The position numbers were made by a program, and so were the translations under genes. Shown piece by piece: positions 19,399 through 35,052 of a DNA stretch of 64,000 nt. The stretch is taken from the NCBI GenBank assembly GCA_963840745.1, contig CAWJAC010000005.1:17615-81614 (forward strand). The letters are read 5' to 3'. The number at the start of each line of letters is the position of its first letter. Position 1 is the first letter of the stretch. Below the pieces are notes generated by a model. The model made no database searches. It had not been told where the DNA came from and saw only the letters and a list, made by a program, of their open reading frames with translations. Origin of the DNA: Candidatus Zambryskiibacteriota bacterium. GTDB lineage: Bacteria > Patescibacteriota > Minisyncoccia > Phycocordibacterales > WO2-35-19.

Positions 19399-20001
19399 CT
19401 ACTTAAATATTTTTTTTGTTATCCTATTTGCAATTAAAATTGCTACTATTACAGTACCCAAAACAATCAGCCAACTGAATATACCAATAGTGTTATAAAG
19501 CGACTGCCAACTTGCAGCAAAAAAATAACCTATGCTTGAATAAAAAACAATTTGCAGTATATCTCCGATAATCGCGTATAATACAAAACGTTTAAATTTA
19601 ATGTTTCCCAATCCGGCAATAGCATTTATTACAGCGGTAGCCTGGTCTTGAAAGCGGCTGGCAATAATAGCTGCGGCTGAATAACTATTTTCAGCCTTTT
19701 CTACATATTTTAGCGGTTTTGATTCAACTAATTTTCCTAAACGAAACCAGTACAATATTTTTTTGCCATATTTTTTAGAAAGAATATACATAGAGATATC
19801 TCCTAAAATATTACCGGAAGTGCCCGTAATAAGTACGGCGAATATATTAAGGTATCCTTGGCTCGCAAAAGCTGCTGATGCTACGGTGCTTGATCCGGCC
19901 GGCAGTGGAACACCAAGAGAAGAAAGAAAAGCGACTAAAAATAATGTTATGTATTTGTAAACAAGCAGTAATCCAAGGATATTTTGAAATAATAAACTCA
20001 T
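19399..20001 (-). CDS. DedA/VTT-family membrane protein (paralog 2)
   Basis: 200 aa. 'LGVPLPAGSSTVASAAFASQGYLN...GNILGDISMYILSKKYG'. Confidence 0.7.
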   Translation of the reverse strand: MSLLFQNILGLLLVYKYITLFLVAFLSSLGVPLPAGSSTVASAAFASQGYLNIFAVLITGTSGNILGDISMYILSKKYGKKILYWFRLGKLVESKPLKYVEKAENSYSAAAIIASRFQDQATAVINAIAGLGNIKFKRFVLYAIIGDILQIVFYSSIGYFFAASWQSLYNTIGIFSWLIVLGTVIVAILIANRITKKIFK

Positions 20002-20482: not shown

Positions 20483-21385
20483 ATGAAAAAACTCATTGTC
20501 GGTATTGTGGTTGTTTTAGTAATTATTAGCGCCTATTTTATAACTAAGAGTTTGTCGAATAATGCTAGCGTAACAAATAATCAAACGAACAATATAACCC
20601 CGCGGGCAAACGCAACAAGTACTACAGACCAAAAGAATGCGGCTGAAACTGTTATTGGTAAATCTGTCCAGGGCCGCGATATCACAGCATATCACTATGG
20701 CACCGGGAGCACAGAACTTATGTTTGTTGGCGGTATTCATGGCGGATATGAATGGAATACAGTGCTTGTTGCTTATCAATTGATGGATTATTTAAAGCAA
20801 AATCCCAGTATTATTCCCAATAATATAAAAGTAACGGTCATTCCTGTATTAAATCCTGACGGCCTTTATAAAATTGTCGGCACTACTACAGAAAATTTCA
20901 CGCAAGCAAATGTGCCGGCGCAATTAAGCGATACGGTACCCGGACGCTTCAACGCAAATAACGTTGACCTTAATCGTAACTTTGACTGTGATTGGCAAAC
21001 TAACGGCACATGGCAAAATAAAACCGTGAGCGGCGGCAGTAGTGTATTTTCCGAACCGGAAAGTCAGGGCCTAAAAAATTATGTAGAAACAAACAAGCCA
21101 AGTGCGGTCGTGGTTTGGTATAGTTCCGCCGGCGGTGTTTACGCCTCAAGTTGCCACAATGGCGTCTCTGCAGAAACCAATACAATCACCAAAACTTACG
21201 CTGACGCTTCAGGATATCCTGCCTACGCAAGTTTCGATTTCTATGCAACAACAGGTGATATGGTAAATTGGCTGGCCAAAAGCAATATACCGGCAATTAG
21301 TGTACTTCTTACCAATCACACCGATACTGAATGGACTAAAAATCAGAAAGGTGTCGAGGCGCTGCTTAAATATTATTCTAAATAA
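20483..21385 (+). CDS. secreted M14-like zinc carboxypeptidase-fold protein (paralog A; predicted third zinc ligand His replaced by Tyr)
   Basis: 300 aa. 'GGIHGGYEWN', 'LNPDG', 'VDLNRNF'. Has 'WYSSAG' where paralog B has 'WHSQSG'. Confidence 0.6.
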   Translation: MKKLIVGIVVVLVIISAYFITKSLSNNASVTNNQTNNITPRANATSTTDQKNAAETVIGKSVQGRDITAYHYGTGSTELMFVGGIHGGYEWNTVLVAYQLMDYLKQNPSIIPNNIKVTVIPVLNPDGLYKIVGTTTENFTQANVPAQLSDTVPGRFNANNVDLNRNFDCDWQTNGTWQNKTVSGGSSVFSEPESQGLKNYVETNKPSAVVVWYSSAGGVYASSCHNGVSAETNTITKTYADASGYPAYASFDFYATTGDMVNWLAKSNIPAISVLLTNHTDTEWTKNQKGVEALLKYYSK

Positions 21386-22296
21386 TGCGGTTTATATTTA
21401 AGAGACCGGTTGTTATAACTGTTATTATTCTTGCAGTACTTAGCGTTGGCGTCTTTGTATTTTTTAGTTCGCAAAAACCGCCGGAAGTAAAACCAACTCC
21501 TAATTCCAATAATATTGGCCCGGTATATAAGGTAATAGGCGCATCTGTGCAAGGGCGCAAGATTGAAAGCTATACTTATGGAAATGGGATAAAACATCTT
21601 GTATTTGTCGGTGGCATACATGGCGGATATGAATGGAATAGTGTGCTCTTGGCGTATCAATTTATAGATTATTTAGATAAAAATCCTGGATTCATTCCGG
21701 GCGGCTTGACTGTTACCGTAATTCCAGATGTTAATCCTGATGGAGTATTTGAGGTAACTCACAAAGTTGGCCGTTTTAATGACACGGATGTATCAACCAG
21801 CACTAAAATACTTGCGGCTGGGCGTTTCAACGCAGATGGAGTTGATCTTAATCGCAACTTTGACTGCAAATGGCAAGCGACAAGTACCTGGCAATCAAAA
21901 ATAGTCAGCGCCGGTTCAAAACCCTTCTCTGAGCCGGAAGATTTGGCTATTAAAAATTTTATTTTAGAAAATAATACTAATAATAATATTAAGGCAGTTA
22001 TATTTTGGCATAGTCAGTCAGGCAGCGTATATGCGTCACAGTGCCATGCCGGCATTCTTCCCGAGACTTTGGATATCATGAACACTTATGCTAAGGCTGC
22101 GAATTATACGCCGGTCAAAGTATTTAATGCTTATGCCACCTCCGGTGCTGCCGATGACTGGCTGGCTTCCATAAATATTCCGGCAATTACAGTAGAACTT
22201 AAAACCCATAATGCGACGGAATGGCAACAAAACCTCGCTGGTATCAAAGCCCTTTTTGAATACTACGGTCAGAAAAAATATTATGAGCCGCGTTAA
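21385..22296 (+). CDS. secreted M14-like zinc carboxypeptidase (paralog B)
   Basis: 303 aa. 'GGIHGGYEWN', 'VNPDG', 'VDLNRNF', 'FWHSQSGSVYAS' (M14 'HSYSQ'-like). Confidence 0.65.
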   Translation: MRFIFKRPVVITVIILAVLSVGVFVFFSSQKPPEVKPTPNSNNIGPVYKVIGASVQGRKIESYTYGNGIKHLVFVGGIHGGYEWNSVLLAYQFIDYLDKNPGFIPGGLTVTVIPDVNPDGVFEVTHKVGRFNDTDVSTSTKILAAGRFNADGVDLNRNFDCKWQATSTWQSKIVSAGSKPFSEPEDLAIKNFILENNTNNNIKAVIFWHSQSGSVYASQCHAGILPETLDIMNTYAKAANYTPVKVFNAYATSGAADDWLASINIPAITVELKTHNATEWQQNLAGIKALFEYYGQKKYYEPR

Positions 22297-22474
22297 AATT
22301 ATTATTTTTATATTTGCAGTACTGGTGATCCTTTTTCTTATAAATTTCACGGTATATAAAGCAGTGCTTTTGGTTTTAGGAATTTCCGAACATTCGTTTT
22401 TGGTAATTGTCATCTTAGGCGCTCTGACAGCAAGCATAATAGCGTCACTTATTTTAGGTATGCGCTCATTATAA
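22282..22474 (+). CDS. small membrane protein (hypothetical)
   Basis: ~64 aa from an internal ATG. Two TM helices. Confidence 0.3.
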
Positions 22475-22505
22475 TTTATTTACCAGAATTTATTATCTTC
22501 TATCC

Positions 22506-23379
22506 ATGGTCTGGATGGGATTTCTGGGATACTTTTTTATTGCTTCTGTTTTATTCTTAATATTTCAAAAATTTACTGACGGCTTCTCCAAAGTTTTTGG
22601 TCTAGCGCTTTTTGGAGTCGCAATTGTATTAGGAATTTACGGTCTAATTCATGCAAACAGAATTATTGTCAAAAAAGTCAATATAAAATTGGAGAGACTT
22701 CCGGAAATATGGCGAGGTAAAAAAGCTGTATGGATAAGTGATCTGCACTTGGGTCAGATATACGGCATAAAGATATATAGACAGGGTGGTCAGAAAAATA
22801 CAAAATATTTCGCCAGATATAGTTTTTATAGGCGGGGATATATTTGACGGCTCAAAATCACCCGAAATTTTAAAATTTACATCTCCACTTCGAGAGCTAT
22901 CAGCCCCTTTGGGAATTTATTCTATAACCGGAAATCACGAAGAATTTGGAGATAGCAGTGACTTTGTCGCGGCTGTAAAAATGGCAAACATACACATACT
23001 GCGGAATGAAATGATCAATATAGGCGAGCTGCAAATTATAGGGGTTGATTATAGAAATGCCTCTAATAAAGAACGCTTTCAAAAAATTCTTTCTGATTTA
23101 CAAATAGATAAAAATAAAGCGTCTATTTTACTAAAACACGAGCCAAAAGATATAGATGTGGCACAAAAAGAGGGCGTCTCGCTTCAAATTTCTGGACACA
23201 CCCACGGCGCCCAACAGTGGCCATTTGGATATTTGGCAAAACTTATTTACGGGCAATTCGCTTACGGACTAAATAGAATAGGGGACACGCAAGTTTATAC
23301 TTCAAGCGGAATGGGCACATGGGGACCGCCGATACGAGTGGGAACAGATAGTGAGATAGTAGTTTTCACTTTCTTGTAA
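22506..23379 (+). CDS. membrane-anchored calcineurin-like metallophosphoesterase, +1 frameshift in an (AT)n run (22771-22779)
   Basis: ORF 22506..22847 ('ISDLHLGQIYG') and ORF 22786..23379 ('DIVFIGGDIFDG...GNHE...SGHTHG') are adjacent frames of a single YkuE-like phosphoesterase. Confidence 0.7.
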
Positions 23380-24006: not shown

Positions 24007-24582
24007 GTGACTCTTCACCAAATAATACAATTTTTTGCAAAATACAAATATGAAGCAATTTTTCCGGTCGCAGTCGCCGAGGGTCCCATAATAACAGTTA
24101 TTTGCGGTTTTTTGACATCACGCGGAAGTTTAGATATTTTACCGGCTCTTATGGTTGTGTTCTCGGGAGATGCTATTTCAGACTTTCTATTTTATATAAT
24201 GGGCAGAGGTGGGAGACATGTGATTCAATATCTGAAATTCATACACATTTCCGATGAAAAAATACAAGAGCTGGAAAATCGGTTTAAATTATCACCATGG
24301 AGGACAATGATAATAGCTAAAATATCTTACGGATTGGGCAGTGTTTTTATGGTTGCAAGCGGCGCTTCGAAGATGTCATGGAAACGTTTTCTCGAATATA
24401 CATTGAGTCTGGATTTTATCAGATCATACATATTATTTTCAATCGGTTTTTATTTTGGCAGAATTGCCCTGCGGGTAGGACCAACATATTTAAAATATTA
24501 TGCAACGGCTGTGATCATATTAGTCCCTATAGGATACTTCTTATACCGCAAAAGACTCAAAAATCCCAGTGAAAGGAACTGA
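24007..24582 (+). CDS. DedA/VTT-family membrane protein (paralog 3)
   Basis: 191 aa, GTG start. 'AEGPIITVICGFL...FSGDAISDFLFYIMGRGG'. Confidence 0.65.
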   Translation: MTLHQIIQFFAKYKYEAIFPVAVAEGPIITVICGFLTSRGSLDILPALMVVFSGDAISDFLFYIMGRGGRHVIQYLKFIHISDEKIQELENRFKLSPWRTMIIAKISYGLGSVFMVASGASKMSWKRFLEYTLSLDFIRSYILFSIGFYFGRIALRVGPTYLKYYATAVIILVPIGYFLYRKRLKNPSERN

Positions 24583-24628: not shown

Positions 24629-25234
24629 ATGAAAAAAACCATCGTATCATTTTCTTTCATATTTGCATTTGTTGTATATAGTTTATATCAGTATTTTGGG
24701 ATGTCACAGACATTAACATTTGTAGCGGCCAATAATACACCGGGCACAAAAGTCACATTGGAGACATCGCAGCCGATTATTACTACAAAAAATACCGTCT
24801 CCAAAGCGTCTCCAAATAAAGCTGTGACCCAAACCCAGTCAGGCCAGCCGGTTCCAATTCCGACCCCAACTCCGATCCCAGTGCCAACACCAACGCCAAT
24901 TCCAGCACCAGTAGCAGTATCGGCACCGGCGCCAGTGGTCAAAAATATGTACAACGACGGCAATTACACCGGAAGCATTGCTGATGCTTATTATGGTAAT
25001 ATTCAAGTGCAAGCAACCATTCAAAACGGTAAAATTGTCGATGTTCAATTCTTACAATATCCAAGTGATAGAAGCAGATCTGTCAGTATAAACACCAGAG
25101 CTATGCCTATTTTGAAAAGCGAGGCTATCTCTAGCCAAAGCGCCAATGTTGATATTGTCTCCGGCGCCACTGATTCAAGCCAGGCTTTTGTGCAGTCGCT
25201 TAGTTCGGCTCTTGCTCAGGCTTTAAATTCCTAA
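24629..25234 (+). CDS. secreted FMN-binding (FMN_bind) domain protein with flavinylation motif
   Basis: 201 aa. Signal/TM sequence, Pro-rich (PIPTPTP) linker, then an FMN_bind domain ending 'DIVSGATDSS' ([ST]GA[TS] ApbE target motif). Confidence 0.75.
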   Translation: MKKTIVSFSFIFAFVVYSLYQYFGMSQTLTFVAANNTPGTKVTLETSQPIITTKNTVSKASPNKAVTQTQSGQPVPIPTPTPIPVPTPTPIPAPVAVSAPAPVVKNMYNDGNYTGSIADAYYGNIQVQATIQNGKIVDVQFLQYPSDRSRSVSINTRAMPILKSEAISSQSANVDIVSGATDSSQAFVQSLSSALAQALNS

Positions 25235-25238
25235 ACCT

Positions 25239-26000
25239 ATGAAAAAAACTGAGTGGATCATGGGCATGCCAATAACGGTCTGCATTGCGGACCAATTTGA
25301 AACAGAAAAAGTCAAAGAAGCGGCAACCAAAAAAGTGTTCGAATATTTTCATTATGTGGATGAAAAATTCAGCACTTACAAAGAGGGAAGTGAGATAAGT
25401 AAAATAAACAGGAAAGAAATAAAAGAAAGCGATTGGAGTGGAGATATGAAAACAGTCTTTGCACTTTCTGAAAAAACAAAAATGGAAACGAACGGCTATT
25501 TCAATATACTGACACCCGAAGGTTTGTTTGATCCGTCCGGATTGGTTAAAGGCTGGTCAATCTATAATGCGGCAAACATTCTTGCTGAATTAGGGTTTAA
25601 AAATTTCTACGTGGATGCCGGTGGTGATATTGAAACGAAGGGGAAAAACGAAAATGGGGAAGTTTGGAGTGTCGGTATCCGCGATCCATTTGTCAATGAT
25701 AAAAGCCACATTATAAAAACAGTTTTTATAAGTAATTGTGGCATGGCCACTTCCGGCACCTATGAACGAGGCCAGCATATCTACAATCCGCATGTTGGCC
25801 GCGTCCCTCTCAATGATATCGTGAGCATCACGGTCATTGGTCCAAACGTTTATGAAGCCGATCGATTCGCCACCGCCGCCTTTGCCATGGGAAATGAAGG
25901 AATAAATTTTATTGAACGATTAGATGGTTTTGAAGGTTATTCTGTAGATAAAAACGGCATCGCCACCGAAACTTCCGAATTTAATAAATTTACAAAATAA
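25239..26000 (+). CDS. apbE: FAD:protein FMN transferase (ApbE family)
   Basis: 253 aa. 'FDPSGLVKGW', 'MATSGTYERG' ApbE signatures. Confidence 0.8.
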   Translation: MKKTEWIMGMPITVCIADQFETEKVKEAATKKVFEYFHYVDEKFSTYKEGSEISKINRKEIKESDWSGDMKTVFALSEKTKMETNGYFNILTPEGLFDPSGLVKGWSIYNAANILAELGFKNFYVDAGGDIETKGKNENGEVWSVGIRDPFVNDKSHIIKTVFISNCGMATSGTYERGQHIYNPHVGRVPLNDIVSITVIGPNVYEADRFATAAFAMGNEGINFIERLDGFEGYSVDKNGIATETSEFNKFTK

Positions 26001-26003
26001 AGG

Positions 26004-27488
26004 ATGAAAACAATAGACAACATTTTAAATAGAATAACCATGTACCGAATCGTCTTATATGAACTTATAGGCCTTTTGGTGGCAGCTGGTATTTTGGGAT
26101 TTTTTGGCATATTGCCATACACGCCAATCAGCATATTTTTTTCGTCTGTTTATATATTAGCCATCTGCTTAGTAGTCAACAAAATATTTGCCTGGGCCTA
26201 TAATGCGCCAACCAATCCTGAATCAACATATATCACAGCTTTGATTTTGGCTTTGATTATTTCTCCGGCGCTTTCCTTGGATGATTCAAATTTTCTTGCA
26301 CTTGCTTTTTGGGCCTCCAGTTTGGCGATAGCTTCAAAATATATTTTAGCCATCGGCAAAAAACACATTTTCAATCCGGCGGCCATCGCGGTAGTAATTA
26401 CTGCTTTTGTTTTGAATCAATCGGCAAGCTGGTGGGTTGGCACTTCCTCTATGTTGCCAGTTGTTTTAATTGGCGGATTTTTGGTGGCCCGCAAAATCCA
26501 ACGCCTTGATTTGGTTTGGTCAGCAATAATTGCTAGCCTTGTCGCTATATTAGGATTTTCTTTTATAAAAGGCGGCAGTATTTTTGCACTCGGATGGAGT
26601 GTGCTTGTTTCTACTCCTCTCATATTTTTCGCTACGATAATGCTTACAGAACCATTGACTACACCAGGAACTAAACCGATGCGTATTACTTATGGACTAC
26701 TCACTGGAATTTTGTTTGCGCCATTTATTCATATTGGTTCTATTTATTCAACACCGGAGCTGGCTTTGGTTGTTGGAAACATTTTTTCATACTTAGTAAG
26801 TTCTAAGAAAAAATTAACTCTGGTTTTGGACAATATAGAAAAAATTTCAGTTGATTCGTATGATTTTATTTTTACTCCAGAAGAGCGGCTATCTTATCAC
26901 CCCGGACAATATATGGAGTGGACACTGGCGCATAATGGATCAGACGACCGCGGCATACGAAGATATTTTACTTTGGCATCGTCTCCAACCGAAGAAGAAT
27001 TGCGGCTCGGAGTTAAATTTCACGACAAAGGAAGCAGCTTCAAGAAAAAACTATTATCTATGAAAAGGGGAGACAGTATTGTTGCCTCTGGACTTGCTGG
27101 GGATTTCGTTTTGCCAAAAAATAAAAATGAGAAATTGGTTTTTTTGGCGGGCGGCATAGGCATTACACCATTCCGAAGCATGATTCAATATTTAATTGAT
27201 ACAAAAGACAAAAGGTCAGTTACTCTTTTGTATAGTAATAAAACCGCAAACGATGTAGTGTACAGAGAAGTCTTCGAAGAGGCACGGCGCTTGCTCGGTA
27301 TTAAAACTTTTTATGCTTTAGCCAGAATAGATGCAAAAACCATAACAGAACAAGTGCCTGATTATAAAGACAGAATTTTTTATCTCTCGGGTCCGCGCAG
27401 CATGGTAGTCGGTTTTGAAAAACTACTGGAGTCTATGGGGGTTAAAGAAAGTAATATCAAGACAGACTTTTTCCCGGGATTTGCTTAA
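26004..27488 (+). CDS. membrane oxidoreductase: polytopic N-terminal domain fused to FNR-type FAD/NAD(P)-binding domain
   Basis: 494 aa. ~7 TM helices ('KHIFNPAAIAVV'), then 'RRYFTLASS' (RxYS FAD motif) and 'LAGGIGITPFRSM' (NAD(P) motif). Confidence 0.7.
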   Translation: MKTIDNILNRITMYRIVLYELIGLLVAAGILGFFGILPYTPISIFFSSVYILAICLVVNKIFAWAYNAPTNPESTYITALILALIISPALSLDDSNFLALAFWASSLAIASKYILAIGKKHIFNPAAIAVVITAFVLNQSASWWVGTSSMLPVVLIGGFLVARKIQRLDLVWSAIIASLVAILGFSFIKGGSIFALGWSVLVSTPLIFFATIMLTEPLTTPGTKPMRITYGLLTGILFAPFIHIGSIYSTPELALVVGNIFSYLVSSKKKLTLVLDNIEKISVDSYDFIFTPEERLSYHPGQYMEWTLAHNGSDDRGIRRYFTLASSPTEEELRLGVKFHDKGSSFKKKLLSMKRGDSIVASGLAGDFVLPKNKNEKLVFLAGGIGITPFRSMIQYLIDTKDKRSVTLLYSNKTANDVVYREVFEEARRLLGIKTFYALARIDAKTITEQVPDYKDRIFYLSGPRSMVVGFEKLLESMGVKESNIKTDFFPGFA

Positions 27489-27495
27489 AGATTAT

Positions 27496-28338
27496 ATGAA
27501 AAACAAACCAATTAAAAAAATAAGTTTTTACTTACGGGAAGATAATAAGATATCTAAAAATTGGCAATCAAAAATAGAATCGTGGCTGAAAGATAAGCAT
27601 CCGAATATCAAAATTTCTAGCGATAAACCTGAAGCCATATTGGTTTTGGGGGGAGACGGCACTATCATGGAGGCCGCTAAAAAATACGCCAACAGCAAAG
27701 TTATAATTTTGGGAATAAATTTGGGCCATTTGGGTTTTTTGGCTTCTATAAATAATTCTGACGATTTCCCTCTTATGCTGGATAAGTTTTTAAAAGGTGA
27801 TTTTGAGACTGGCCCAGGAATGATTATTAAGGCGACAGTGATGCGCAACAAAAGGGAGGTTTTTGCCGCTGATGCATTTAATGAAATCGTCGTTCAAAAT
27901 CCTTTGGGCATGGTTGAGGTTGATGTTGGCATCGGCGGAGAAATGATTGAGAAGATACGCGGCAGTGGTGTTCTGGTAGCTACCCCGTCCGGATCAACGG
28001 CTTATAATCTTTCGGCCCATGGACCCATCGTCTCGCCGGACATTGAATGCTTAATAGTAACTGAACTTTTTGATCATGATCTGCCAACACCGAGTTTGGT
28101 GGTACCCACGACTGAAGTGATAAAGTTAATTGTCAGAAATTTCCGCGAACACAAATTTTTAAAAATCACATCTACAGGCGAAAAATTTGATGTTTTGTTT
28201 ATTGCCGATGGTGTGGCTTTATTTGTCCTAAAAAGCGGGGATGAAATCAACATAACTCGCACTAATAGCGCTTTTAAACTGGCTATACTCAAGCCAAATC
28301 ATTTCTATAAAAATCTGCATTCCAAATTCAGCTTTTAA
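27496..28338 (+). CDS. nadK: NAD+ kinase
   Basis: 'LVLGGDGTIMEAA', 'GINLGHLGFL', 'ATPSGSTAYNLSA'. Start taken at the ATG after the upstream stop. Confidence 0.85.
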   Translation: MKNKPIKKISFYLREDNKISKNWQSKIESWLKDKHPNIKISSDKPEAILVLGGDGTIMEAAKKYANSKVIILGINLGHLGFLASINNSDDFPLMLDKFLKGDFETGPGMIIKATVMRNKREVFAADAFNEIVVQNPLGMVEVDVGIGGEMIEKIRGSGVLVATPSGSTAYNLSAHGPIVSPDIECLIVTELFDHDLPTPSLVVPTTEVIKLIVRNFREHKFLKITSTGEKFDVLFIADGVALFVLKSGDEINITRTNSAFKLAILKPNHFYKNLHSKFSF

Positions 28339-28989: not shown

Positions 28990-29532
28990 ATGAAAAATAA
29001 AGAAGTAGCGGTGTTTGGTGGTGGCTGTTTTTGGTGCACTGAAGCGGTTTTCAAAATGATAAAAGGGGTTACTCTGGTAAAACCCGGCTATGCTGGCGGT
29101 AAAACCGAAAACCCGACATATATAGAAGTAAGCTCGGGAAAGACCGGGCATGCCGAGGTTATATATATTGAATATGATCCGTTACAGGTTGATTACAAAG
29201 ATTTACTGACTATATTTTTTGGCAGTTATGACCCAACCGCTTTAAACAGGCAGGGTGCCGATGTGGGAACTCAGTACCGTTCTGTTATTTTTTATTCAAC
29301 AGAAAAACAAAAAGAAGAAGCGTTAAATTTTATAAAAGAAATTAATAATTCAAATAAGGAAGGCAAGCCGGTAATCACAGAAGTTACACCGCTTGATAAA
29401 TTTTATGATGCTGAAAATTATCACAAAAATTATTTTGAAAATCATAAAAAAAATCCGTATTGTGAGCTTGTTATAAATCCAAAATTGGAAAAGATTCAAA
29501 AAAATTTTGCCAACCTGTTAAAAACCATATAA
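28990..29532 (+). CDS. msrA: peptide-methionine (S)-S-oxide reductase
   Basis: 'GGGCFWCTEAVF', 'GYAGG'. Confidence 0.9.
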   Translation: MKNKEVAVFGGGCFWCTEAVFKMIKGVTLVKPGYAGGKTENPTYIEVSSGKTGHAEVIYIEYDPLQVDYKDLLTIFFGSYDPTALNRQGADVGTQYRSVIFYSTEKQKEEALNFIKEINNSNKEGKPVITEVTPLDKFYDAENYHKNYFENHKKNPYCELVINPKLEKIQKNFANLLKTI

Positions 29533-29536
29533 AAAT

Positions 29537-29935
29537 ATGAAAAAAGAACCAATGCCAAAAACAGAAGAAGAATGGAAAAAGGTTCTGACCCCGGAACAAT
29601 ATGAAATTCTTAGGGAGAGGGGGACAGAAGCTCCATTTTCAGGTAAATTGTTGAAGTCAGATAAAGATGGCGTTTTTGTCTGCGCCGCTTGCGGCAACCC
29701 TCTTTTTTCATCCGAAGCAAAATTTGAATCAGGCACTGGCTGGCCGAGTTTTGATGAAACCCTGCCGGGGGCGGTGGAGGAGAGATTAGACAATTCTCTC
29801 GGTATGGCAAGAACAGAGGTGGTTTGTTCCAGATGCGGTTCGCACTTGGGGCATTTGTTTGACGATGGACCAACTAAAACAGGCAAAAGATATTGTTTGA
29901 ATTCCGTTTGTCTAGACCTTGAGGAAAAAACATAA
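29537..29935 (+). CDS. msrB: peptide-methionine (R)-S-oxide reductase
   Basis: 'CAACGNPLF', 'GWPSF', 'RCGSHLGHLFDDGP'. Confidence 0.9.
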   Translation: MKKEPMPKTEEEWKKVLTPEQYEILRERGTEAPFSGKLLKSDKDGVFVCAACGNPLFSSEAKFESGTGWPSFDETLPGAVEERLDNSLGMARTEVVCSRCGSHLGHLFDDGPTKTGKRYCLNSVCLDLEEKT

Positions 29936-29953: not shown

Positions 29954-30460
29954 ATGGATGAAAAAAGCGATATTGAAATAATCGTAAAGCAATATTTAAA
30001 GTCGGTCTATAATTTTGTCTTTCGCATTGTTGGCAATGAAAACGAAGCTAGCGACATCACTCAAGAAGTCTTTATAAAAGTTTGGAAAAATTTAAGTAAA
30101 ATTGACGAGAGTAAAAATTTCAAAACTTGGATTTTTGCTATTGCCAGAAATACAACCATAGATTGGCTTAGAAAAAGAAAAAATATTTCTTTTTCTAAAA
30201 TCGAATCCGAGGATAATTATTTTGAAGAAAACATAGAGGATATTGAACCTCTTCCGGATGAAATTTTTATTAAAAAAGAATTGGCAAAGGAAGTTGAAGA
30301 GGCTCTTACCAAAATAAGGCCCGATTTTAGGGAAATAATTTTGTTGCGTTATGTTGAAGATCTTACTTTTGAAGAAATCTCAGAAATTGTCGATAAACCT
30401 CTTAACACCGTCAAATCCCACCACCTCCGCGCCCTCTCCGCTTTGAGAAAATTTTTTTAA
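29954..30460 (+). CDS. ECF-type sigma-70 family sigma factor
   Basis: 168 aa. Region 2 'DITQEVFIKVWKNL...WIFAIARNTTIDWLRKRK' and region 4 'IILLRYVEDLTFEEISEIVDKPLNTVKSHHLRAL'. Confidence 0.85.
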   Translation: MDEKSDIEIIVKQYLKSVYNFVFRIVGNENEASDITQEVFIKVWKNLSKIDESKNFKTWIFAIARNTTIDWLRKRKNISFSKIESEDNYFEENIEDIEPLPDEIFIKKELAKEVEEALTKIRPDFREIILLRYVEDLTFEEISEIVDKPLNTVKSHHLRALSALRKFF

Positions 30461-30496
30461 GGTAAAAATGCTTTAAAATAAGGGTTAAAATGGTGA

Positions 30497-30952
30497 GTGC
30501 AACTAAATGGGAGTGAGGTACGTATTATAGATATGAAGATGGAAGAAAAATACAAAAAACTATTAGGTTCTATTAATTTTATAGAACCGCCCAAAGGACT
30601 TGGGACCAGAATTTTAGAGCGGGTAAATGCGGAAAAGGAAAGGCTGATGAGAATCAGGACTTGGGTTTTTGGAAGCGGTACGGTGGCTTCCTTTGGTCTT
30701 TCTTTGTGGGCAGTAATTTATTTGATAAAAAGCGCTCAAGAGAGCGGCTTTGTCCAATATCTCTCTTTAATTTTTTCTGAAAATGGAGTAATGCTTACGT
30801 ATTGGCGCGAGCTGTCTTTGTCTTTAGTTGAATCACTGCCAATCGTCAGCCTCATAATTTTCCTATCGGCAATTGGATTTTTTATATGGTCGTTTACAAA
30901 AATGATTTCAAACGTGCATGACAGAAATGTAGTATTATTTAGTTTTAACTAA
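30497..30952 (+). CDS. membrane protein, putative anti-sigma factor
   Basis: 151 aa (possibly starting at internal Met 30530). 'ILERVNAEKERL', then 2-3 TM helices. Positioned after the ECF sigma gene as in the 8.4-9.7 kb locus. Confidence 0.45.
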   Translation: MQLNGSEVRIIDMKMEEKYKKLLGSINFIEPPKGLGTRILERVNAEKERLMRIRTWVFGSGTVASFGLSLWAVIYLIKSAQESGFVQYLSLIFSENGVMLTYWRELSLSLVESLPIVSLIIFLSAIGFFIWSFTKMISNVHDRNVVLFSFN

Positions 30953-30957
30953 AAAAC

Positions 30958-31416
30958 ATGAAACTGGAAGACATACACGAATCAAAAATAATCCGAGACA
31001 TCATTATTATAATTGGAATAGTTATAGTTGTTCTTAGCATTTTGTTTATCGGTATAAATATAGGTGAGCGCCGAGCCAGATTTGCCGGACAGTATGGGGA
31101 TAATTTTGAAAGAAATTTTGTAGGGACAAGAAATGGAATGATGGGTGGATATTTTGGCCAAATGCTGCCGAGTGGGCACGGAGCAGTCGGAAATATTGTG
31201 AGCATCAGCTTGCCTCAAATAATTATTACCGGACCGGATAATTTAGAAAAAACTATTTTGGTTGGAACGAGCACTATAGTACGACAATTTCAGCAAAACA
31301 TTCAGAGTTCCGATTTAAAAACCGGGGATTCTGTGGTTGTCATAGGAAATCCAAATAACAGCGGTCAAATAGAGGCTGCTCTCATAAGAGTTATGCCGCA
31401 ACCTCCGCAACCTTAA
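30958..31416 (+). CDS. secreted DUF5666-like protein
   Basis: 152 aa with an N-terminal TM helix. 'GNIVSISLPQIIITGP...LKTGDSVVVIGNPNNSGQIEAALIRV' resembles the repeat unit at 9921..10667. Confidence 0.5.
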   Translation: MKLEDIHESKIIRDIIIIIGIVIVVLSILFIGINIGERRARFAGQYGDNFERNFVGTRNGMMGGYFGQMLPSGHGAVGNIVSISLPQIIITGPDNLEKTILVGTSTIVRQFQQNIQSSDLKTGDSVVVIGNPNNSGQIEAALIRVMPQPPQP

Positions 31417-31443
31417 TTCTTTAATTAATATAATCATAAAACA

Positions 31444-33093
31444 ATGTCTGATAAATTCAGTAAAATAAAAAATTGGATTATTTCGCACAAAAAGACCAGC
31501 GCGGTTTTAGCTTTGGTTATTATTTTTTTAGGATATAAAATATACCAAAACTATACCAGCACCAGCAACGACCCTAAATATATATTAACTACCGTCCAAA
31601 AAGGAGCGGTCGTGACGGCTATTACCGGCACCGGCCAAGTATCAGCCGATAATCAAGTAGACATAACGAGCAAAGCCTCCGGCAATATCACCAAGGTTTA
31701 CGTAACCGCAGGCCAGTCGGTTACAGCCGGTACTCTTTTGGCTCAGGTTGATTTCACCGACGCCGCTTTAACATTGCAATCGGCCCAGGTGGCTTATAAT
31801 AAATTTGTGGAGCCGGCTAAACCTCAAGATATAAAAGCGGCTCAAGACAGTGTCAGCTCCGCATACAATAACGGGTGGAACGCCGCTTCTTCCGCTTTTA
31901 CTGATTATCCCAACATCATAACCGGCATGGATGATTTATTTTATTCTTCAAACGGCTATTTCAGAACTTCAAGCATTAAACAAGGAAATAGTATATCCAA
32001 TTCACATATCCAAAATGCCGGATTAATTTATGACCAGGCCAAAAATCAATACACAACTGTCTTGGCAGAATATAATTCACTTAATCGCGGAAGCACTACC
32101 ACTAGCATAGATAATCTTATGAATGACACAGCTAAAATGCTGCAGACTATGGCTAATGCCTTAAAAAATACACAAAACACTGTTTCTTATATTGTACAAA
32201 ACCAGTCAGACACCAGCCCTGCCGCCACCACAGCAGCAAATAATGTTAATTCATGGCTTAGTACAATCAATACTGATTTATCCAACGTTATTTCGACTCA
32301 AACTAGCATAGTAAATTCACAAAATACACTAAATAATCTGGTGGTTGGGCCAGATCCGCTTGATGTCCAGGCCCAACAAATCTCTCTCCAAAAGGCGCAA
32401 TCAGCTTATCAGAATTATTTTATAAGAGCTCCGTTTGACGGAACTATAGCTAGAGTGCAAGCTAGCATCGGCAATCCGGCGGGTACAGTGGCAACCATAG
32501 TCAGCAACAGCAAAATCGCCACCATATCATTAAATGAAGTTGATGTGGCCAAAATACAAGTCGGCGATAAAGTTAATCTCACTTTTGATGCTATTGATGG
32601 TCTCAACATTGCTGGACAGGTGGCTGAAATAGATCAGGTGGGTACGGTCAGCCAAGGCGTCGTTAGTTATAACGTTCAAATAAGTTTCGATACTCAAGAT
32701 GACAGAGTCAAATCTGGCATGAGCGTCAACTCCTCCGTCATAACAGAGAGCAAACAAGATGTTTTGGTAGTGCCGAGCTCTGCCATTAAAACCCAAGGTA
32801 ATATTTCTTATGTCAATTATTTTGATCAGAAATATACGGATGCGCAGGCAAGCGCCGGTGTAGTTTCTGCCATAGCACCTCTTTCCAAACAAGTGGAAAT
32901 CGGCATCTCCGATGACACCAACACTGAAATTGTTTCCGGGCTTAATGAAGGTGATCAGATAGTATTGAGAACAGTAACTGGAACCACGGCAACAACGAGT
33001 GCTGCTCCAAGCATCTTTGGCGCAGCTACAGGCGGCCGAACAACCGGCGGAGGCAGCGGAGCAGCAGGCACCATCAGAAGAATTGGAGGATAA
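31444..33093 (+). CDS. efflux transporter periplasmic adaptor (HlyD/MacA-family membrane fusion protein)
   Basis: 549 aa. N-terminal TM helix, long coiled-coil, lipoyl/beta-barrel 'KIQVGDKVNLTFDAIDGLNIAGQVAEID'. Confidence 0.75.
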   Translation: MSDKFSKIKNWIISHKKTSAVLALVIIFLGYKIYQNYTSTSNDPKYILTTVQKGAVVTAITGTGQVSADNQVDITSKASGNITKVYVTAGQSVTAGTLLAQVDFTDAALTLQSAQVAYNKFVEPAKPQDIKAAQDSVSSAYNNGWNAASSAFTDYPNIITGMDDLFYSSNGYFRTSSIKQGNSISNSHIQNAGLIYDQAKNQYTTVLAEYNSLNRGSTTTSIDNLMNDTAKMLQTMANALKNTQNTVSYIVQNQSDTSPAATTAANNVNSWLSTINTDLSNVISTQTSIVNSQNTLNNLVVGPDPLDVQAQQISLQKAQSAYQNYFIRAPFDGTIARVQASIGNPAGTVATIVSNSKIATISLNEVDVAKIQVGDKVNLTFDAIDGLNIAGQVAEIDQVGTVSQGVVSYNVQISFDTQDDRVKSGMSVNSSVITESKQDVLVVPSSAIKTQGNISYVNYFDQKYTDAQASAGVVSAIAPLSKQVEIGISDDTNTEIVSGLNEGDQIVLRTVTGTTATTSAAPSIFGAATGGRTTGGGSGAAGTIRRIGG

Positions 33094-33121
33094 AAATTAC
33101 TTGTGGTGAATTTATTGAACC

Positions 33122-33826
33122 ATGATAGAAGTTAAAGACATAAGAAAAACCTATAACAGCGGAGAAAATTCCTTTGAAGCTCTCAAAGGAGTTTCTTTCA
33201 GTATAAAAGATGGAGAATTTATAGCCATTATGGGACCAAGCGGTTCCGGTAAATCAACTCTTATGCACATTCTCGGATGCCTAGATACGCCGACTTCCGG
33301 AAAATATTTTTTGGACGAAAAAGACGTGTCCACCTTAAGCGATGATCAGCTGGCAGAAATAAGAAGAGATAAAATTGGCTTTGTTTTCCAGTCTTTCAAT
33401 CTTCTTCCTAGGACTACCGTGTTGCGCAACGCCATGCTTCCTCTCATATATACAGGAGTACAAGGAGAAGAAAGGGAAAGAAGAGCTAAAGAATCTCTCT
33501 TGCATGCGGGTTTAGAAGAAAGCCATTTTGATCATCTTTCAAATCAGCTTTCTGGAGGCCAAATTCAAAGAGTGGCTATTGCGAGAGCTCTAGTAAACAA
33601 TCCTTCCCTTATACTTGCCGACGAGCCGACTGGAAATCTTGATACTAAAACCGGCGATATTGTCCTTGGCACTTTCCAAAGATTGAACGAGGAACAAGGC
33701 AGAACAATAGTGCTTATCACTCATGAGCCTGATGTGGCCGAGCATGCCGATCGAATTATTCACATCCGTGACGGCGTAATAGTAGAAGACAGCAAGAGAC
33801 ATTTAAAAAAGCGTATTAAAATTTAA
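33122..33826 (+). CDS. ABC transporter ATP-binding protein (MacB/LolD-like)
   Basis: Walker A 'GPSGSGKST', signature 'LSGGQIQRVAIARAL', Walker B 'ILADEPTGNLD'. Confidence 0.9.
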   Translation: MIEVKDIRKTYNSGENSFEALKGVSFSIKDGEFIAIMGPSGSGKSTLMHILGCLDTPTSGKYFLDEKDVSTLSDDQLAEIRRDKIGFVFQSFNLLPRTTVLRNAMLPLIYTGVQGEERERRAKESLLHAGLEESHFDHLSNQLSGGQIQRVAIARALVNNPSLILADEPTGNLDTKTGDIVLGTFQRLNEEQGRTIVLITHEPDVAEHADRIIHIRDGVIVEDSKRHLKKRIKI

Positions 33827-33828
33827 TT

Positions 33829-35052
33829 ATGAAAACTTTAGATATTTTAGAAGAAACATATTCGGCCCTTTTTTCAAACAAAGTGAGATCCGGACTCACT
33901 ATGCTGGGTATTGTTATCGGCATAAGTTCTGTCATAGCGCTCATTTCGGTCGGTCAAGGAGCTCAGAATTCTATACAAGCAAATATTCAATCAATCGGCT
34001 CCAATCTGGTTTTGGTCATGCCGGGCGCTCAAAGAGGCGTGGGAGTTTCTGTCAGCGCCGGCCGAGGCTCGGCTCAATCTTTAACTTTAGCTGACTCTCA
34101 AGCCATTGCCGGACTGACTAACGTGTTGGCGGTAGCTCCAGAAGTTGACGGTAGAGACCAAATCACAACTAAAGGACAAAATACCAATACATCAGTCATC
34201 GGAACAACAAGCAGCTATCCTGCCGTCCGCAACGTGCAAATAGCCGATGGTTCTTTTATTAGCGATCAAAATATAACCGACCTCTCTAAAGTAGCCGTCT
34301 TGGGTCCAACCGCTCGAGATGATCTTTTTGGAGTAGGCGCGACTAATGTGATAGGTCAAGATATTCGTATCAAAGGAGATGTGTTTAAAATCATAGGCAT
34401 AACGGTCGCCAAAGGAGGCAGCGGGTTTGGCAGCCAGGATGATATGATTTTCGTACCGCTATCGAGCGCCCAAAAATTTTTGGTGGGCAATGACTATCTA
34501 AGCAGTATCAGTGTTGAAGCCCAAAGTGCAGATGTTATGACAACTTTGCAAAGCGATATTACCACTCTCTTGCTTGGACGCCACAATATAAAAAATGCGG
34601 CTCAAGCTGATTTTAGCACTTTGAATGAGGCCGACATTGTGGCCACTGCTTCATCTGTCACCAGCACCTTTACAATACTACTTGGCGCTGTAGCTGGCAT
34701 ATCACTCCTCGTTGGCGGCATCGGCATTATGAATATGATGCTAACAACAGTCACGGAAAGAACGAGAGAAATCGGTTTACGCAAAGCTATCGGCGCCAAA
34801 GCTTCCGACATCAGCAAACAATTTTTGATAGAAGCGGTTATGCTAACTCTGATTGGTGGGCTGGTCGGAGTAGTTTTGGGTTGGTCGGTTTCTTTCATTG
34901 TCACTTACTTCAAAATTCTGGAAACTCAGGTTTCTATCTCTTCAATTCTTTTGGCTTTTGGAGTATCAACGCTCATTGGTATCATATTTGGATATTACCC
35001 GGCCCGCCGAGCCGCTGGGCTTAATCCAATAGATGCACTAAGATACGAGTAA
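33829..35052 (+). CDS. ABC transporter permease (FtsX/MacB family)
   Basis: 407 aa. N-terminal TM helix, large periplasmic domain, C-terminal FtsX-like 3-TM bundle. Confidence 0.8.
   Translation: MKTLDILEETYSALFSNKVRSGLTMLGIVIGISSVIALISVGQGAQNSIQANIQSIGSNLVLVMPGAQRGVGVSVSAGRGSAQSLTLADSQAIAGLTNVLAVAPEVDGRDQITTKGQNTNTSVIGTTSSYPAVRNVQIADGSFISDQNITDLSKVAVLGPTARDDLFGVGATNVIGQDIRIKGDVFKIIGITVAKGGSGFGSQDDMIFVPLSSAQKFLVGNDYLSSISVEAQSADVMTTLQSDITTLLLGRHNIKNAAQADFSTLNEADIVATASSVTSTFTILLGAVAGISLLVGGIGIMNMMLTTVTERTREIGLRKAIGAKASDISKQFLIEAVMLTLIGGLVGVVLGWSVSFIVTYFKILETQVSISSILLAFGVSTLIGIIFGYYPARRAAGLNPIDALRYE

What the first reader, a model, noticed from the sequence alone, without database searches (positions are those of the whole stretch)
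24629..27488. Extracytosolic flavinylation / transmembrane electron-transfer module
Three adjacent genes form the module. The first is a secreted FMN_bind protein with the ApbE target motif 'DIVSGAT' after a Pro-rich linker. The second is an ApbE FAD:protein FMN transferase. The third is a polytopic membrane protein fused to an FNR-type FAD ('RRYFTLAS') and NAD(P) ('GGIGITPF') binding domain. Together they look like a minimal NAD(P)H-to-extracellular-flavoprotein electron conduit. This is analogous to flavin-based extracellular electron transfer systems and is uncharacterised in CPR organisms that lack respiratory chains.
Basis: partly seen in the sequence, partly recalled or inferred. Interest (0 to 1): 0.7.

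Follow-up and report, generated by a model that had tools for sequence, protein, structure and literature searches.

The report
Known NQR/RNF-like flavin electron-transfer operon
Three tightly packed genes encode a membrane-anchored flavin-carrying protein, the enzyme that attaches its flavin, and a membrane protein fused to an NAD(P)H-oxidising domain; this matches the published, still untested, 'NQR/RNF-like' system thought to pass electrons from NAD(P)H out of the cell, so it is a typical member of a known kind.

Summary

Méheust et al. 2021 (eLife) defined this architecture as the 'NQR/RNF-like system', found mainly in Actinobacteria and CPR. Huang et al. 2024 modelled it with AlphaFold-multimer. 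I found no biochemical characterisation.

The gene order FMN_bind-ApbE-fusion holds in 64 of 80 related loci. At least 594 species-representative genomes encode the fusion. No acceptor gene and no other Rnf/Nqr subunit is linked.

- The RnfD loop that carries the flavinylated Thr is deleted, in agreement with Huang 2024.
- The ApbE belongs to a compact (~250 aa) clade with no signal peptide, so it is predicted to be cytoplasmic, while its substrate's domain is predicted to be outside. This contradiction is unresolved, and the two papers that describe the system do not discuss it.

Verdict: a new member of a known kind, of moderate-to-low interest.

The parts
24629..25234 (+). Gene 1: RnfG/NqrC-like FMN_bind protein (201 aa). 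It has an N-terminal anchor, a Pro-rich linker and a C-terminal FMN-binding domain.
   Evidence: Pfam FMN_bind 7.3e-9 over aa 121-195. Best solved relative is 8p2a_A, a single FMN-binding domain, at 8e-12 with the DxxSGAT motif aligned. The gene lies upstream of the fusion gene in 75 of 80 related loci.
24641..24697 (+). N-terminal hydrophobic anchor (aa 5-23), preceded by Lys2-Lys3.
   Evidence: It is the only 19-aa window in the protein with Kyte-Doolittle score >= 1.6. The sequence pattern 'MKKxxLSxxVIxxFxxY' is conserved across 79 homologues. The N-tail holds more K/R than the C-flank in 53 of 79 and fewer in 6.
24845..24934 (+). Pro-rich low-complexity linker (aa 73-102, QPVPIPTPTPIPVPTPTPIPAPVAVSAPAP).
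   Evidence: Read directly from the translation. In homologues the linker varies in length and is S/T/P/N-rich.
25151..25171 (+). ApbE target motif DIVSGAT (aa 175-181). The predicted FMN-phosphoester acceptor is Thr181 (codon 25169-25171).
   Evidence: Motif located. [ST]GA[ST] is present in 77 of 79 homologues, 18-21 residues from the C-terminus. It aligns with DAVSGAT of 8p2a_A.
25239..26000 (+). Gene 2: compact, signal-less ApbE-family FAD:protein FMN transferase (253 aa).
   Evidence: Pfam ApbE 9.7e-40. PDB hits are V. cholerae ApbE 8e-18, E. coli ApbE and Listeria FmnB. Invariant motifs are listed. The AF2 model has pLDDT 94 with TM-score 0.81-0.90 to FmnB, ApbE and Ftp. There is no hydrophobic segment, and an in-frame stop at 25224 blocks any upstream extension.
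26004..26807 (+). Gene 3, N-terminal half: RnfD/NqrB-like membrane domain (aa 1-268) with 10 TM helices, N-in/C-in.
26415..26453 (+). Short outward loop between TM5 and TM6 (aa 138-150, NQSASWWVGTSSM). It replaces the ~80-residue RnfD loop that carries the flavinylated Thr.
   Evidence: The global profile alignment to E. coli RsxD puts RsxD residues ~137-222, including GISQAT187PLD, into one gap between aa 140 and 141. Position 142 is S/T in 20 of 24 sequences and N or L in the other 4, so it is not a conserved acceptor.
26811..27488 (+). Gene 3, C-terminal half: FNR/NqrF-type FAD + NAD(P)H-binding reductase domain (aa 270-494), cytoplasmic, with no Fe-S domain.
26958..26981 (+). FAD-binding motif RRYFTLAS (aa 319-326).
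   Evidence: Located. R319, R320, F322, T323, A325 and S326 are invariant in 24 homologues.
27150..27173 (+). NAD(P)H pyrophosphate-binding motif GGIGITPF (aa 383-390).
   Evidence: Located. G383, G384, I385, G386, T388, P389 and F390 are invariant.
27496..28338 (+). Neighbour, not a conserved part of the module: NAD kinase, whose ATG lies 7 nt after the stop codon of gene 3.
   Evidence: Pfam NAD_kinase and NAD_kinase_C. The start matches database protein P0122. No NAD kinase lies beside the module in any of the 80 related loci.

Best explanation
This is a three-gene 'NQR/RNF-like' flavin-based transmembrane electron-transfer module.

Proposed pathway:
1. NAD(P)H is oxidised by FAD in the cytoplasmic FNR-type domain of the 494-aa protein.
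2. Electrons enter the fused 10-helix RnfD/NqrB-like membrane domain. The likely entry point is a non-covalent flavin held near the cytoplasmic face, as riboflavin is in RnfD/NqrB.
3. They cross to the outer face, where the loop that carries covalent FMN in RnfD/NqrB has been deleted.
4. That position is served instead by FMN covalently attached to Thr181 of the separately encoded, membrane-anchored FMN_bind (RnfG/NqrC-like) subunit.
5. This subunit sits on a long flexible Pro-rich tether and passes electrons to an external acceptor that the operon does not encode.
6. The ApbE enzyme installs the FMN from FAD.

In a fermentative CPR cell, the net effect would be NAD(P)+ regeneration or reduction of an extracellular substrate such as iron.

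Shown here: domain identities and folds, topology of the fusion protein, motif conservation, operon conservation, loss of the RnfD flavinylation loop, and absence of other Rnf/Nqr subunits.

Inferred: cofactor content, direction of electron flow, the intramembrane flavin, the acceptor, and where flavinylation takes place.
For: Domains and motifs.

Topology: 10 TM helices, with K+R of 8.5 inside against 0.75 outside. This places the FNR domain in the cytoplasm and the TM5/6 loop outside.

FMN_bind subunit: conserved KK + TM anchor with an N-in charge bias. The [ST]GA[ST] acceptor motif is present in 77 of 79 homologues.

ApbE: catalytic motifs are invariant and the fold is intact.

Synteny: FMN_bind-ApbE-fusion in 64 of 80 loci across CPR, Chloroflexota and MAGs labelled Actinomycetota.

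Family size: the family is large. At least 594 species-representative genomes encode a relative. The membrane domain alone finds 361 clusters (50% identity) at E <= 1e-30, most of them ~500-aa fusions.

Not a canonical complex: the RnfD flavinylated loop is deleted, and there are no RnfA/B/C/E homologues in the window or in the 80 loci.

Literature:
- The same architecture and the same proposed function are published (PMC8238504 section 13; PMC10979944 section 8).
- In RnfD/NqrB, riboflavin sits nearer the cytoplasmic side and covalent FMN nearer the periplasmic side, ~8 Å apart, and RnfG/NqrC is an N-terminally anchored extracytosolic shuttle (PMC12174285).
Against: The ApbE has no signal peptide or any hydrophobic segment. 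This is a trait of the whole clade:
- 36 of 68 neighbouring ApbE genes have fewer than 15 open codons upstream of the aligned N-terminus.
- The 120 closest homologues are 235-304 aa.

A cytoplasmic ApbE cannot act on an already exported domain, so one step of the model is missing.

Other gaps:
- No acceptor or partner gene is conserved nearby; the best neighbour clusters reach 13 of 80 loci, and the best adjacent same-strand gene reaches 4 of 80.
- The intramembrane flavin is inferred only from homology.
- Sequence similarity of the membrane domain to RnfD is weak (E 0.042 by phmmer), so cofactor sites may differ.
- I found no experimental data for any member.
Confidence: 0.72

Rival explanations
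1. Inward-facing 'mini-NQR'. The FMN_bind domain is cytoplasmic (anchor N-out) and is flavinylated there by the cytoplasmic ApbE. It relays electrons from the FNR FAD to the RnfD-like domain, which reduces a membrane or internal acceptor such as a quinone. Nothing extracellular is involved.
For: This removes the ApbE localisation paradox, since ApbE is signal-less throughout the clade. Cytoplasmic ApbEs acting on cytoplasmic FMN_bind domains are known, for example with K. pneumoniae fumarate reductase (PMC12052999). The charge bias of the anchor is modest in absolute terms, typically 2 K/R against 1.
Against: The KK N-tail favours N-in in 53 of 79 homologues and opposes it in 6. Homologous RnfG/NqrC anchors are N-in with the domain outside (PMC12174285). 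The long S/T/P-rich linkers look extracellular. The published AlphaFold-multimer model docks the domain on the extracytosolic face, at the vacated FMN pocket (PMC10979944 section 8). It is general knowledge, not tested here, that CPR organisms generally lack quinones.
Confidence: 0.1
2. Same electron path, but energy-coupled. The RnfD/NqrB-like domain retains the cation pathway proposed for NqrB/RnfD, so the module acts as a minimal redox-driven Na+/H+ pump. It would energise the membrane of organisms that lack respiratory chains.
Against: In RNF/NQR, coupling is thought to need the RnfA/E (NqrD/E) 2Fe-2S switch and large RnfG/NqrC movements between two docking sites (PMC12174285). RnfA/E are absent here, and so is the covalent FMN of RnfD. 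I did not test any ion-binding residues.
Confidence: 0.08
3. The cluster ApbE is not the flavinylating enzyme for the exported subunit. It would act as a cytoplasmic FAD pyrophosphatase or flavin-trafficking enzyme that loads the fusion protein. A second, secreted ApbE elsewhere in the genome would modify Thr181.
For: ApbE/Ftp family members can have FAD pyrophosphatase activity; PDB entry 4xdr is titled a bifunctional FMN transferase/FAD pyrophosphatase. The signal-less state fits a cytoplasmic role.
Against: No second ApbE lies in the 64-kb window. The tight, conserved placement of ApbE between the substrate gene and the partner gene in 64 of 80 loci argues for a direct role. The catalytic His and the Mg-binding D...T are conserved as in transferases. 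Small CPR genomes are unlikely to keep two ApbE genes; that point is an inference.
Confidence: 0.08

Closest known systems
NQR/RNF-like flavinylation-associated system (Méheust et al. 2021, eLife, PMC8238504; Huang et al. 2024, PMC10979944)
   Same: The architecture is identical: a PF03116 membrane domain fused to PF00175, next to FMN_bind and ApbE genes. The taxonomic range is the same (CPR, Actinobacteria, and Ktedonobacteria as the modelled example). The NqrB/RnfD-like subunit has lost its flavinylated Thr in the same way. The proposed one-way NAD(P)H-to-outside electron path is the same.
   Different: Nothing differs in kind. This locus adds a downstream NAD kinase, which is not conserved. 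My data show that the cluster ApbE belongs to a compact, signal-less clade; the text of the two papers does not mention this. The published count of 127 genomes is far below the >= 594 species representatives found here.
Rnf and Na+-NQR complexes (RnfD/NqrB + RnfG/NqrC core)
   Different: RnfA/E (NqrD/E) and RnfB/C (NqrA) are absent, and there is no 2Fe-2S ferredoxin domain on the NqrF-like part. The ~80-residue loop with the covalent-FMN Thr is deleted. The reductase is fused directly to the D/B-like subunit. The complex would run a single one-way path rather than the semicircular path of Rnf/NQR, and there is no evidence for ion pumping.
Listeria-type flavin-based extracellular electron transfer (Ndh2, DMK, EetA/B, PplA, FmnB)
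   Same: Cytosolic NADH is the electron source. An ApbE-family enzyme flavinylates a surface-tethered FMN_bind protein that hands electrons to external acceptors. The organisms are fermentative.
   Different: The membrane step is unrelated: type II NADH dehydrogenase plus demethylmenaquinone and EetA/B there, an RnfD-like domain fused to an FNR domain here. No quinone is needed here. FmnB and PplA are lipoproteins, whereas this ApbE has no export signal.
NOX/FRE-type reductases (e.g. SpNOX: 6-TM di-heme domain + FNR-type dehydrogenase domain)
   Different: The membrane domain is not a ferric-reductase heme domain; it has the RnfD/NqrB fold and is presumably flavin-based. The outer redox centre sits on a separate flavinylated subunit.
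Cytoplasmic ApbE of Klebsiella pneumoniae (flavinylates a soluble fumarate reductase; reviewed in PMC12052999)
   Same: It is an ApbE without a signal peptide that acts in the cytoplasm.
   Different: Its substrate is a soluble cytoplasmic enzyme. Here the adjacent substrate carries an N-terminal membrane anchor that is predicted to place the FMN_bind domain outside the cell.

Membership tests
NQR/RNF-like system (Méheust 2021 operational definition) | One protein with an N-terminal NqrB/RnfD-homologous membrane domain (PF03116) and a C-terminal NqrF-like NAD-binding domain (PF00175) | tested here: met
NQR/RNF-like system (Méheust 2021 operational definition) | Encoded within five genes of an ApbE or FMN_bind gene (a flavinylation-associated cluster) | tested here: met
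   ApbE and FMN_bind lie immediately upstream, separated by 3-nt and 4-nt gaps. The order is conserved in 64 of 80 loci.
NQR/RNF-like system (Méheust 2021 operational definition) | [quoted passage not shown] | tested here: inconclusive
   SignalP was not available. FMN_bind has a KK + 19-aa hydrophobic N-terminus, which could be a signal anchor or a signal peptide. ApbE has neither.
NQR/RNF-like system (Huang 2024 description) | The NqrB/RnfD-like subunit lacks the conserved flavinylated Thr | tested here: met
   The RsxD loop 137-222, which contains T187, falls in a single gap. The residual S/T at position 142 is not conserved (20 of 24).
Canonical Rnf / Na+-NQR complex | Covalent-FMN Thr in the RnfD/NqrB subunit | tested here: not met
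   The loop is deleted.
Canonical Rnf / Na+-NQR complex | RnfA/E (NqrD/E) and RnfB/C (NqrA/F with 2Fe-2S) subunits encoded together with D and G | tested here: not met
   E. coli RsxA, B, C and E probes find nothing in the window or in the 80 loci. No Fe-S domain was detected in the fusion protein.
ApbE FAD:protein FMN transferase (PF02424) | Family profile match and ApbE fold | tested here: met
   Pfam 9.7e-40. AF2 pLDDT 94, with TM-score 0.81-0.90 to FmnB, V. cholerae ApbE and T. pallidum Ftp.
ApbE FAD:protein FMN transferase (PF02424) | Catalytic and cofactor motifs: ATSG.Y, the His aligned with V. cholerae His257 (entry 6nxj is the H257G mutant), the Mg-binding D...T, GGD and KGW | tested here: met
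   The motifs align to 6nxi, 4xgw and 7esa. All are invariant in 24 clade members.
ApbE FAD:protein FMN transferase (PF02424) | N-terminal lipoprotein or secretion signal (typical, not universal) | tested here: not met
   There is no hydrophobic segment, and a stop at 25224 blocks extension. The same holds across the clade.
ApbE substrate FMN_bind domain (PF04205; RnfG/NqrC/PplA type) | FMN_bind domain carrying the D-x-x-[ST]-G-A-[ST] acceptor motif | tested here: met
   Pfam 7.3e-9. DIVSGAT lies at aa 175-181. The motif is present in 77 of 79 homologues.
ApbE substrate FMN_bind domain (PF04205; RnfG/NqrC/PplA type) | FMN actually attached covalently to the Thr | not testable with these tools
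   This needs UV fluorescence on SDS-PAGE or mass spectrometry of the expressed protein.
FNR-type reductase (FAD_binding_6 / NAD_binding_1) | R-x-[YF]-[ST] FAD motif, G-G-x-G-x-x-P nucleotide motif, and a C-terminal aromatic residue | tested here: met
Listeria-type flavin-based EET locus | Ndh2-type NADH dehydrogenase, EetA/EetB, DMK synthesis genes, and lipoproteins PplA and FmnB | tested here: not met
   The only membrane component in or next to the module is the RnfD-like fusion protein. ApbE is not a lipoprotein. Ndh2, EetA/B and DMK genes were not searched for directly.

The most novel reading that the evidence does not exclude
The dedicated, compact, signal-less ApbE clade flavinylates the membrane-anchored FMN_bind subunit inside the cell, before or during export of its C-terminal domain. 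This would be a route to covalently flavinylated surface proteins that needs no FAD export, which would be useful to flavin-scavenging, minimal-genome CPR cells. The resulting two-subunit complex may be their main, possibly ion-coupled, membrane redox device.
Probability: 0.25. Interest if true: 0.65.

Novelty: new member of a known kind. Interest (0 to 1): 0.33.

Why it matters
CPR/Patescibacteria are thought to lack respiratory chains. A conserved, self-contained device that moves electrons from NAD(P)H across the membrane would be one of their few membrane redox systems. It could explain how they regenerate NAD+, acquire iron or interact with hosts.

That idea is already in the literature, so this locus mainly adds another example.

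What this analysis adds:
- A scale estimate: at least 594 species-representative genomes, and 361 clusters (50% identity) at E <= 1e-30.
- Confirmation that the module stands alone, with no linked acceptor gene.
- The observation that its ApbE is predicted to be cytoplasmic throughout the clade. This poses a concrete, testable question about where flavinylation of an exported protein takes place.

Tried and rejected
1. Stop-codon readthrough or frameshift producing an FMN_bind-ApbE fusion that would carry ApbE outside. Rejected. In the window the two genes are in different frames, and only 5 nt separate the ApbE-frame stop (25224) from the FMN_bind stop (25232). In about 15 loci listed, the FMN_bind stop directly precedes the ApbE frame in the same frame; I counted these by eye from the coordinates. 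That is below the one-third expected by chance.

2. NAD kinase as a conserved partner that would imply NADPH use. Rejected. No NAD kinase lies beside the module in any of the 80 loci.

3. A conserved acceptor or fourth operon gene. None was found. Among genes within 4 kb, the best clusters are a response regulator and an ABC transporter (13 of 80 loci each), a histidine kinase (12 of 80), and an HlyD-like protein and an ECF-type sigma factor (10 of 80 each). Among immediately adjacent same-strand genes, the best is 4 of 80.

4. A second ApbE or FMN_bind gene in the window. None.

6. The supplementary table of Méheust 2021 is truncated in the held copy, so its SignalP column for NQR/RNF-like clusters could not be read.

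7. The look-up of encoding contigs with P0001 found nothing. The window holds no rRNA gene. The CPR assignment therefore rests on the names of homologues.

8. My first motif regex was wrong and reported 'none' for most homologues. It was corrected.

9. NADH versus NADPH preference. The 'SNKTANDVVY' segment resembles the NADH-type cytochrome b5 reductase pattern, but only from memory. It was not tested and is not claimed.
Full report

Yes. The ORF listing gives three co-directional ORFs at exactly the stated coordinates: 24629-25234 (201 aa), 25239-26000 (253 aa) and 26004-27488 (494 aa). They are separated by 4 and 3 nt.

All quoted motifs are present: DIVSGAT at aa 175-181 of protein 1, and RRYFTLAS (aa 319-326) and GGIGITPF (aa 383-390) of protein 3. 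The Pro-rich linker spans aa 73-102 of protein 1.

Every Pfam match is above its gathering score:
- FMN_bind, 7.3e-9
- ApbE, 9.7e-40
- NQR2_RnfD_RnfE, 3.6e-7
- FAD_binding_6, 2.8e-4
- NAD_binding_1, 1.5e-10

The opposite-strand ORFs across the region are short and overlap these genes, with nothing to support them.

**2. What the three proteins are**

*Protein 3.* The AlphaFold2 model built on 24 homologues has pLDDT 82 and pTM 0.71. It shows ten transmembrane helices followed by a β/α reductase domain.
- Foldseek found only the reductase half.
- Averaged over 24 sequences, the loops predicted to face inward carry 8.5 K+R and the outward loops 0.75. The topology is therefore N-in/C-in, with the reductase domain in the cytoplasm.
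- A global profile alignment to E. coli RsxD runs end to end and pairs the conserved motifs: ES·YIT·LIL with NSALLTGLLL, KHIFNPAA with QNPFNPAM, and MLTEPLTTP with ILTDPVTAS. RsxD residues ~137-222, the outward loop that carries the flavinylated Thr187, fall in a single gap.
- The short replacement loop (aa 138-150) has S/T at position 142 in only 20 of 24 sequences.

The membrane domain is thus a minimal RnfD/NqrB core that has lost its own covalent-FMN site. The FNR motifs and the C-terminal aromatic residue are invariant. No Fe-S domain is present.

*Protein 1.* It consists of Lys2-Lys3, one hydrophobic helix (aa 5-23), a low-complexity linker and a C-terminal FMN_bind domain.
- Its best solved relative is a single flavinylated FMN-binding domain (8p2a_A, 8e-12), with the acceptor motif aligned.
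- Across 79 homologues next to related fusion genes, the N-terminal pattern 'MKKxxLSxxVIxxFxxY' is conserved. The N-tail holds more K/R than the C-flank in 53 and fewer in 6.
- [ST]GA[ST] is present in 77 of 79, always 18-21 residues from the C-terminus.
- Sequence conservation inside the helix suggests a retained anchor that packs against a partner, like the anchors of RnfG/NqrC, rather than a cleaved signal peptide. That is an inference.

*Protein 2.* It is an ApbE.
- It aligns to V. cholerae ApbE, E. coli ApbE and Listeria FmnB with the motifs FSTY..SEIS..N, KGW, AGGD, ATSG.Y, the His of 'QHIYNP' (aligned to the His of 'SHIIDP') and EAD.FAT.
- All of these are invariant in 24 clade members.
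- It lacks about 50 internal residues compared with canonical ApbEs. It still folds confidently (pLDDT 94) and superposes on FmnB, ApbE and Ftp with TM-scores of 0.81-0.90.

**3. Is it a unit, and how widespread is it?**

The best 80 span many CPR lineages, Chloroflexota (including cultured Ktedonospora and Dictyobacter) and MAGs labelled Actinomycetota.
- The order FMN_bind-ApbE-fusion holds in 64 of 80 loci. Two more have an extra FMN_bind gene, and nine have FMN_bind-fusion without ApbE.
- The membrane domain alone finds 1,528 clusters (50% identity) at E <= 1e-3 and 361 at E <= 1e-30, most of them ~500-aa fusions.
- No other gene is consistently linked. The best neighbour clusters reach 13 of 80 loci, and the best immediately adjacent same-strand gene reaches 4 of 80.
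- E. coli RsxA/B/C/E probes find nothing in the window or the loci.
- The NAD kinase that starts 7 nt downstream here is not a conserved neighbour.

The module is therefore a self-contained three-gene unit, not a fragment of an Rnf or Nqr operon.

**4. Comparison with what is known**

This architecture has been published.
- Méheust et al. 2021 defined the 'NQR/RNF-like system' by exactly this PF03116+PF00175 fusion in a flavinylation gene cluster. [quoted passage not shown] - Huang et al. 2024 modelled the Ktedonobacter complex with AlphaFold-multimer. They noted that the NqrB/RnfD-like subunit has lost its flavinylated Thr. They suggested that the flavin on the RnfG-like subunit occupies the corresponding site (PMC10979944, section 8).
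- My independent tests agree on every point.
- Three full-text searches found no biochemical study of any member.

**5. Most likely mechanism**

RnfD/NqrB holds a riboflavin near the cytoplasmic face and a covalent FMN near the outer face, about 8 Å apart. RnfG/NqrC is an N-terminally anchored outer shuttle (PMC12174285).

By homology, I propose this path: NAD(P)H → FAD in the fused FNR domain, which takes the place of RnfC on the inner face → a non-covalent flavin in the membrane domain → the FMN on Thr181 of protein 1, docked at the vacated outer pocket → an external acceptor.

The long flexible linker would let the flavodomain swing between the dock and distant acceptors.

Shown: folds, topology, motifs, synteny, loss of the loop. 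Inferred: cofactors, direction of flow, acceptor.

**6. What does not fit**

The ApbE has no hydrophobic segment at all, and an in-frame stop at 25224 rules out a longer N-terminus. This is not a local defect:
- 36 of 68 neighbouring ApbE genes have fewer than 15 open codons upstream of the aligned start. The remainder show no Met or signal-like stretch.
- The clade consensus begins 'MKxTxxxMGMPITV'.
- The 120 closest homologues are 235-304 aa, although several sources name them 'lipoprotein'.

A cytoplasmic transferase next to a substrate whose domain is predicted to be outside is a contradiction, and the text of the two papers does not address it.

I rejected readthrough or frameshift fusion; see the tried-and-rejected section. 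The remaining options are:
- flavinylation before or during export;
- an inward-facing FMN_bind domain (the mini-NQR rival);
- an unrecognised export route;
- a second ApbE elsewhere in the genome.

Cytoplasmic ApbEs do exist, but for cytoplasmic substrates (PMC12052999).

**7. Organism**

The window carries housekeeping genes: LeuRS, a short AlaRS, BipA, RpoA and a P-type ATPase. It has about 39% G+C and no rRNA gene. Where sources name the homologues of both proteins, the names include Patescibacteria, Parcubacteria and Taylorbacteria. A CPR origin is likely but is not proven from the window alone. 'Lacks respiratory chains' cannot be tested on 64 kb.

**8. Verdict**

The locus is a typical new member of a known, bioinformatically defined but biochemically untested system. 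Interest is moderate to low (0.33). The signal-less ApbE clade is the one feature that could lead somewhere new.

Noticed in passing
window 27415-28338; locus L082 1437-3631; protein P0121: In a Logan assembly (ERR10755942), the reductase gene runs on into the NAD kinase as a single 765-aa product (…IKTDFYRDLLKDYMKNKP…). In the window the NAD kinase frame is open from 27415 and overlaps the end of gene 3, so one indel near 27470 fuses the two. This is probably an assembly or strain indel rather than a real fusion.
   Followed up: partly
window 26004 and 25239, compared with proteins P0001 and P0274: Database gene calls start the fusion protein 12 aa late (482 aa) and ApbE 7 aa late (246 aa). 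The conserved N-termini of homologues (MKxIDNxLNRITMYR and MKxTxxxMGMPITV) support the longer starts used here.
   Followed up: yes
window 28990-29935; loci L037, L051, L064: A cytoplasmic MsrA-MsrB pair (PMSR 1e-61, SelR 8e-49) lies 1.5 kb downstream. L037 and L051 have the MsrA-MsrB pair, and L064 has MsrB alone, within a few kb of the module. The link is weak (window plus 3 of 80 loci), and its meaning is unknown.
   Followed up: partly
window 29954-35052: An ECF-type sigma factor, a probable membrane anti-sigma, an HlyD-like adaptor, an ABC ATPase and a MacB/FtsX permease follow the module. HlyD-like and ECF-type sigma genes each recur near the module in 10 of 80 loci, and a MacB-like permease in 7. 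This may reflect conserved CPR gene order rather than shared function.
   Followed up: partly
window 20483-22296: Two tandem paralogous M14 zinc carboxypeptidase genes (300 and 303 aa; Pfam 1e-18 and 1e-22). Each has an N-terminal hydrophobic anchor, and the stop of the first overlaps the start of the second.
   Followed up: partly
window 22211-23379: A membrane-anchored calcineurin-like phosphoesterase appears to be split across overlapping ORFs in different frames: 22506-22847, which contains 'WISDLHLG', and 22786-23379, which matches Metallophos at 1e-10. This is a probable frameshift, either a pseudogene or a sequencing error.
   Followed up: no
window 19399-20001 (-) and 24007-24582 (+): Two DedA/VTT-domain membrane proteins lie within 5 kb. 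One sits 46 nt upstream of the module. DedA homologues appear in the flanks of only 5 of 80 related loci.
   Followed up: partly
loci L004 and L065 (same MAG, DAIDHK01); L073; L079: One Levyibacteriota MAG carries two copies of the module, one with ApbE and two FMN_bind genes and one without ApbE. L073 and L079 have two FMN_bind genes and no adjacent ApbE. A single ApbE may therefore serve several substrates.
   Followed up: no
window 55666-57345 and 57407-58828: The AlaRS is short (559 aa) and ends at the tRNA_SAD domain. The next ORF (473 aa) has no Pfam match at E <= 1e-5.
   Followed up: no
proteins P0275, P0280, P0367 and others: Public annotations call these ~250-aa signal-less ApbEs 'thiamine biosynthesis lipoprotein' or 'ApbE family lipoprotein'. 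This is a propagated misnomer for this clade.
   Followed up: yes
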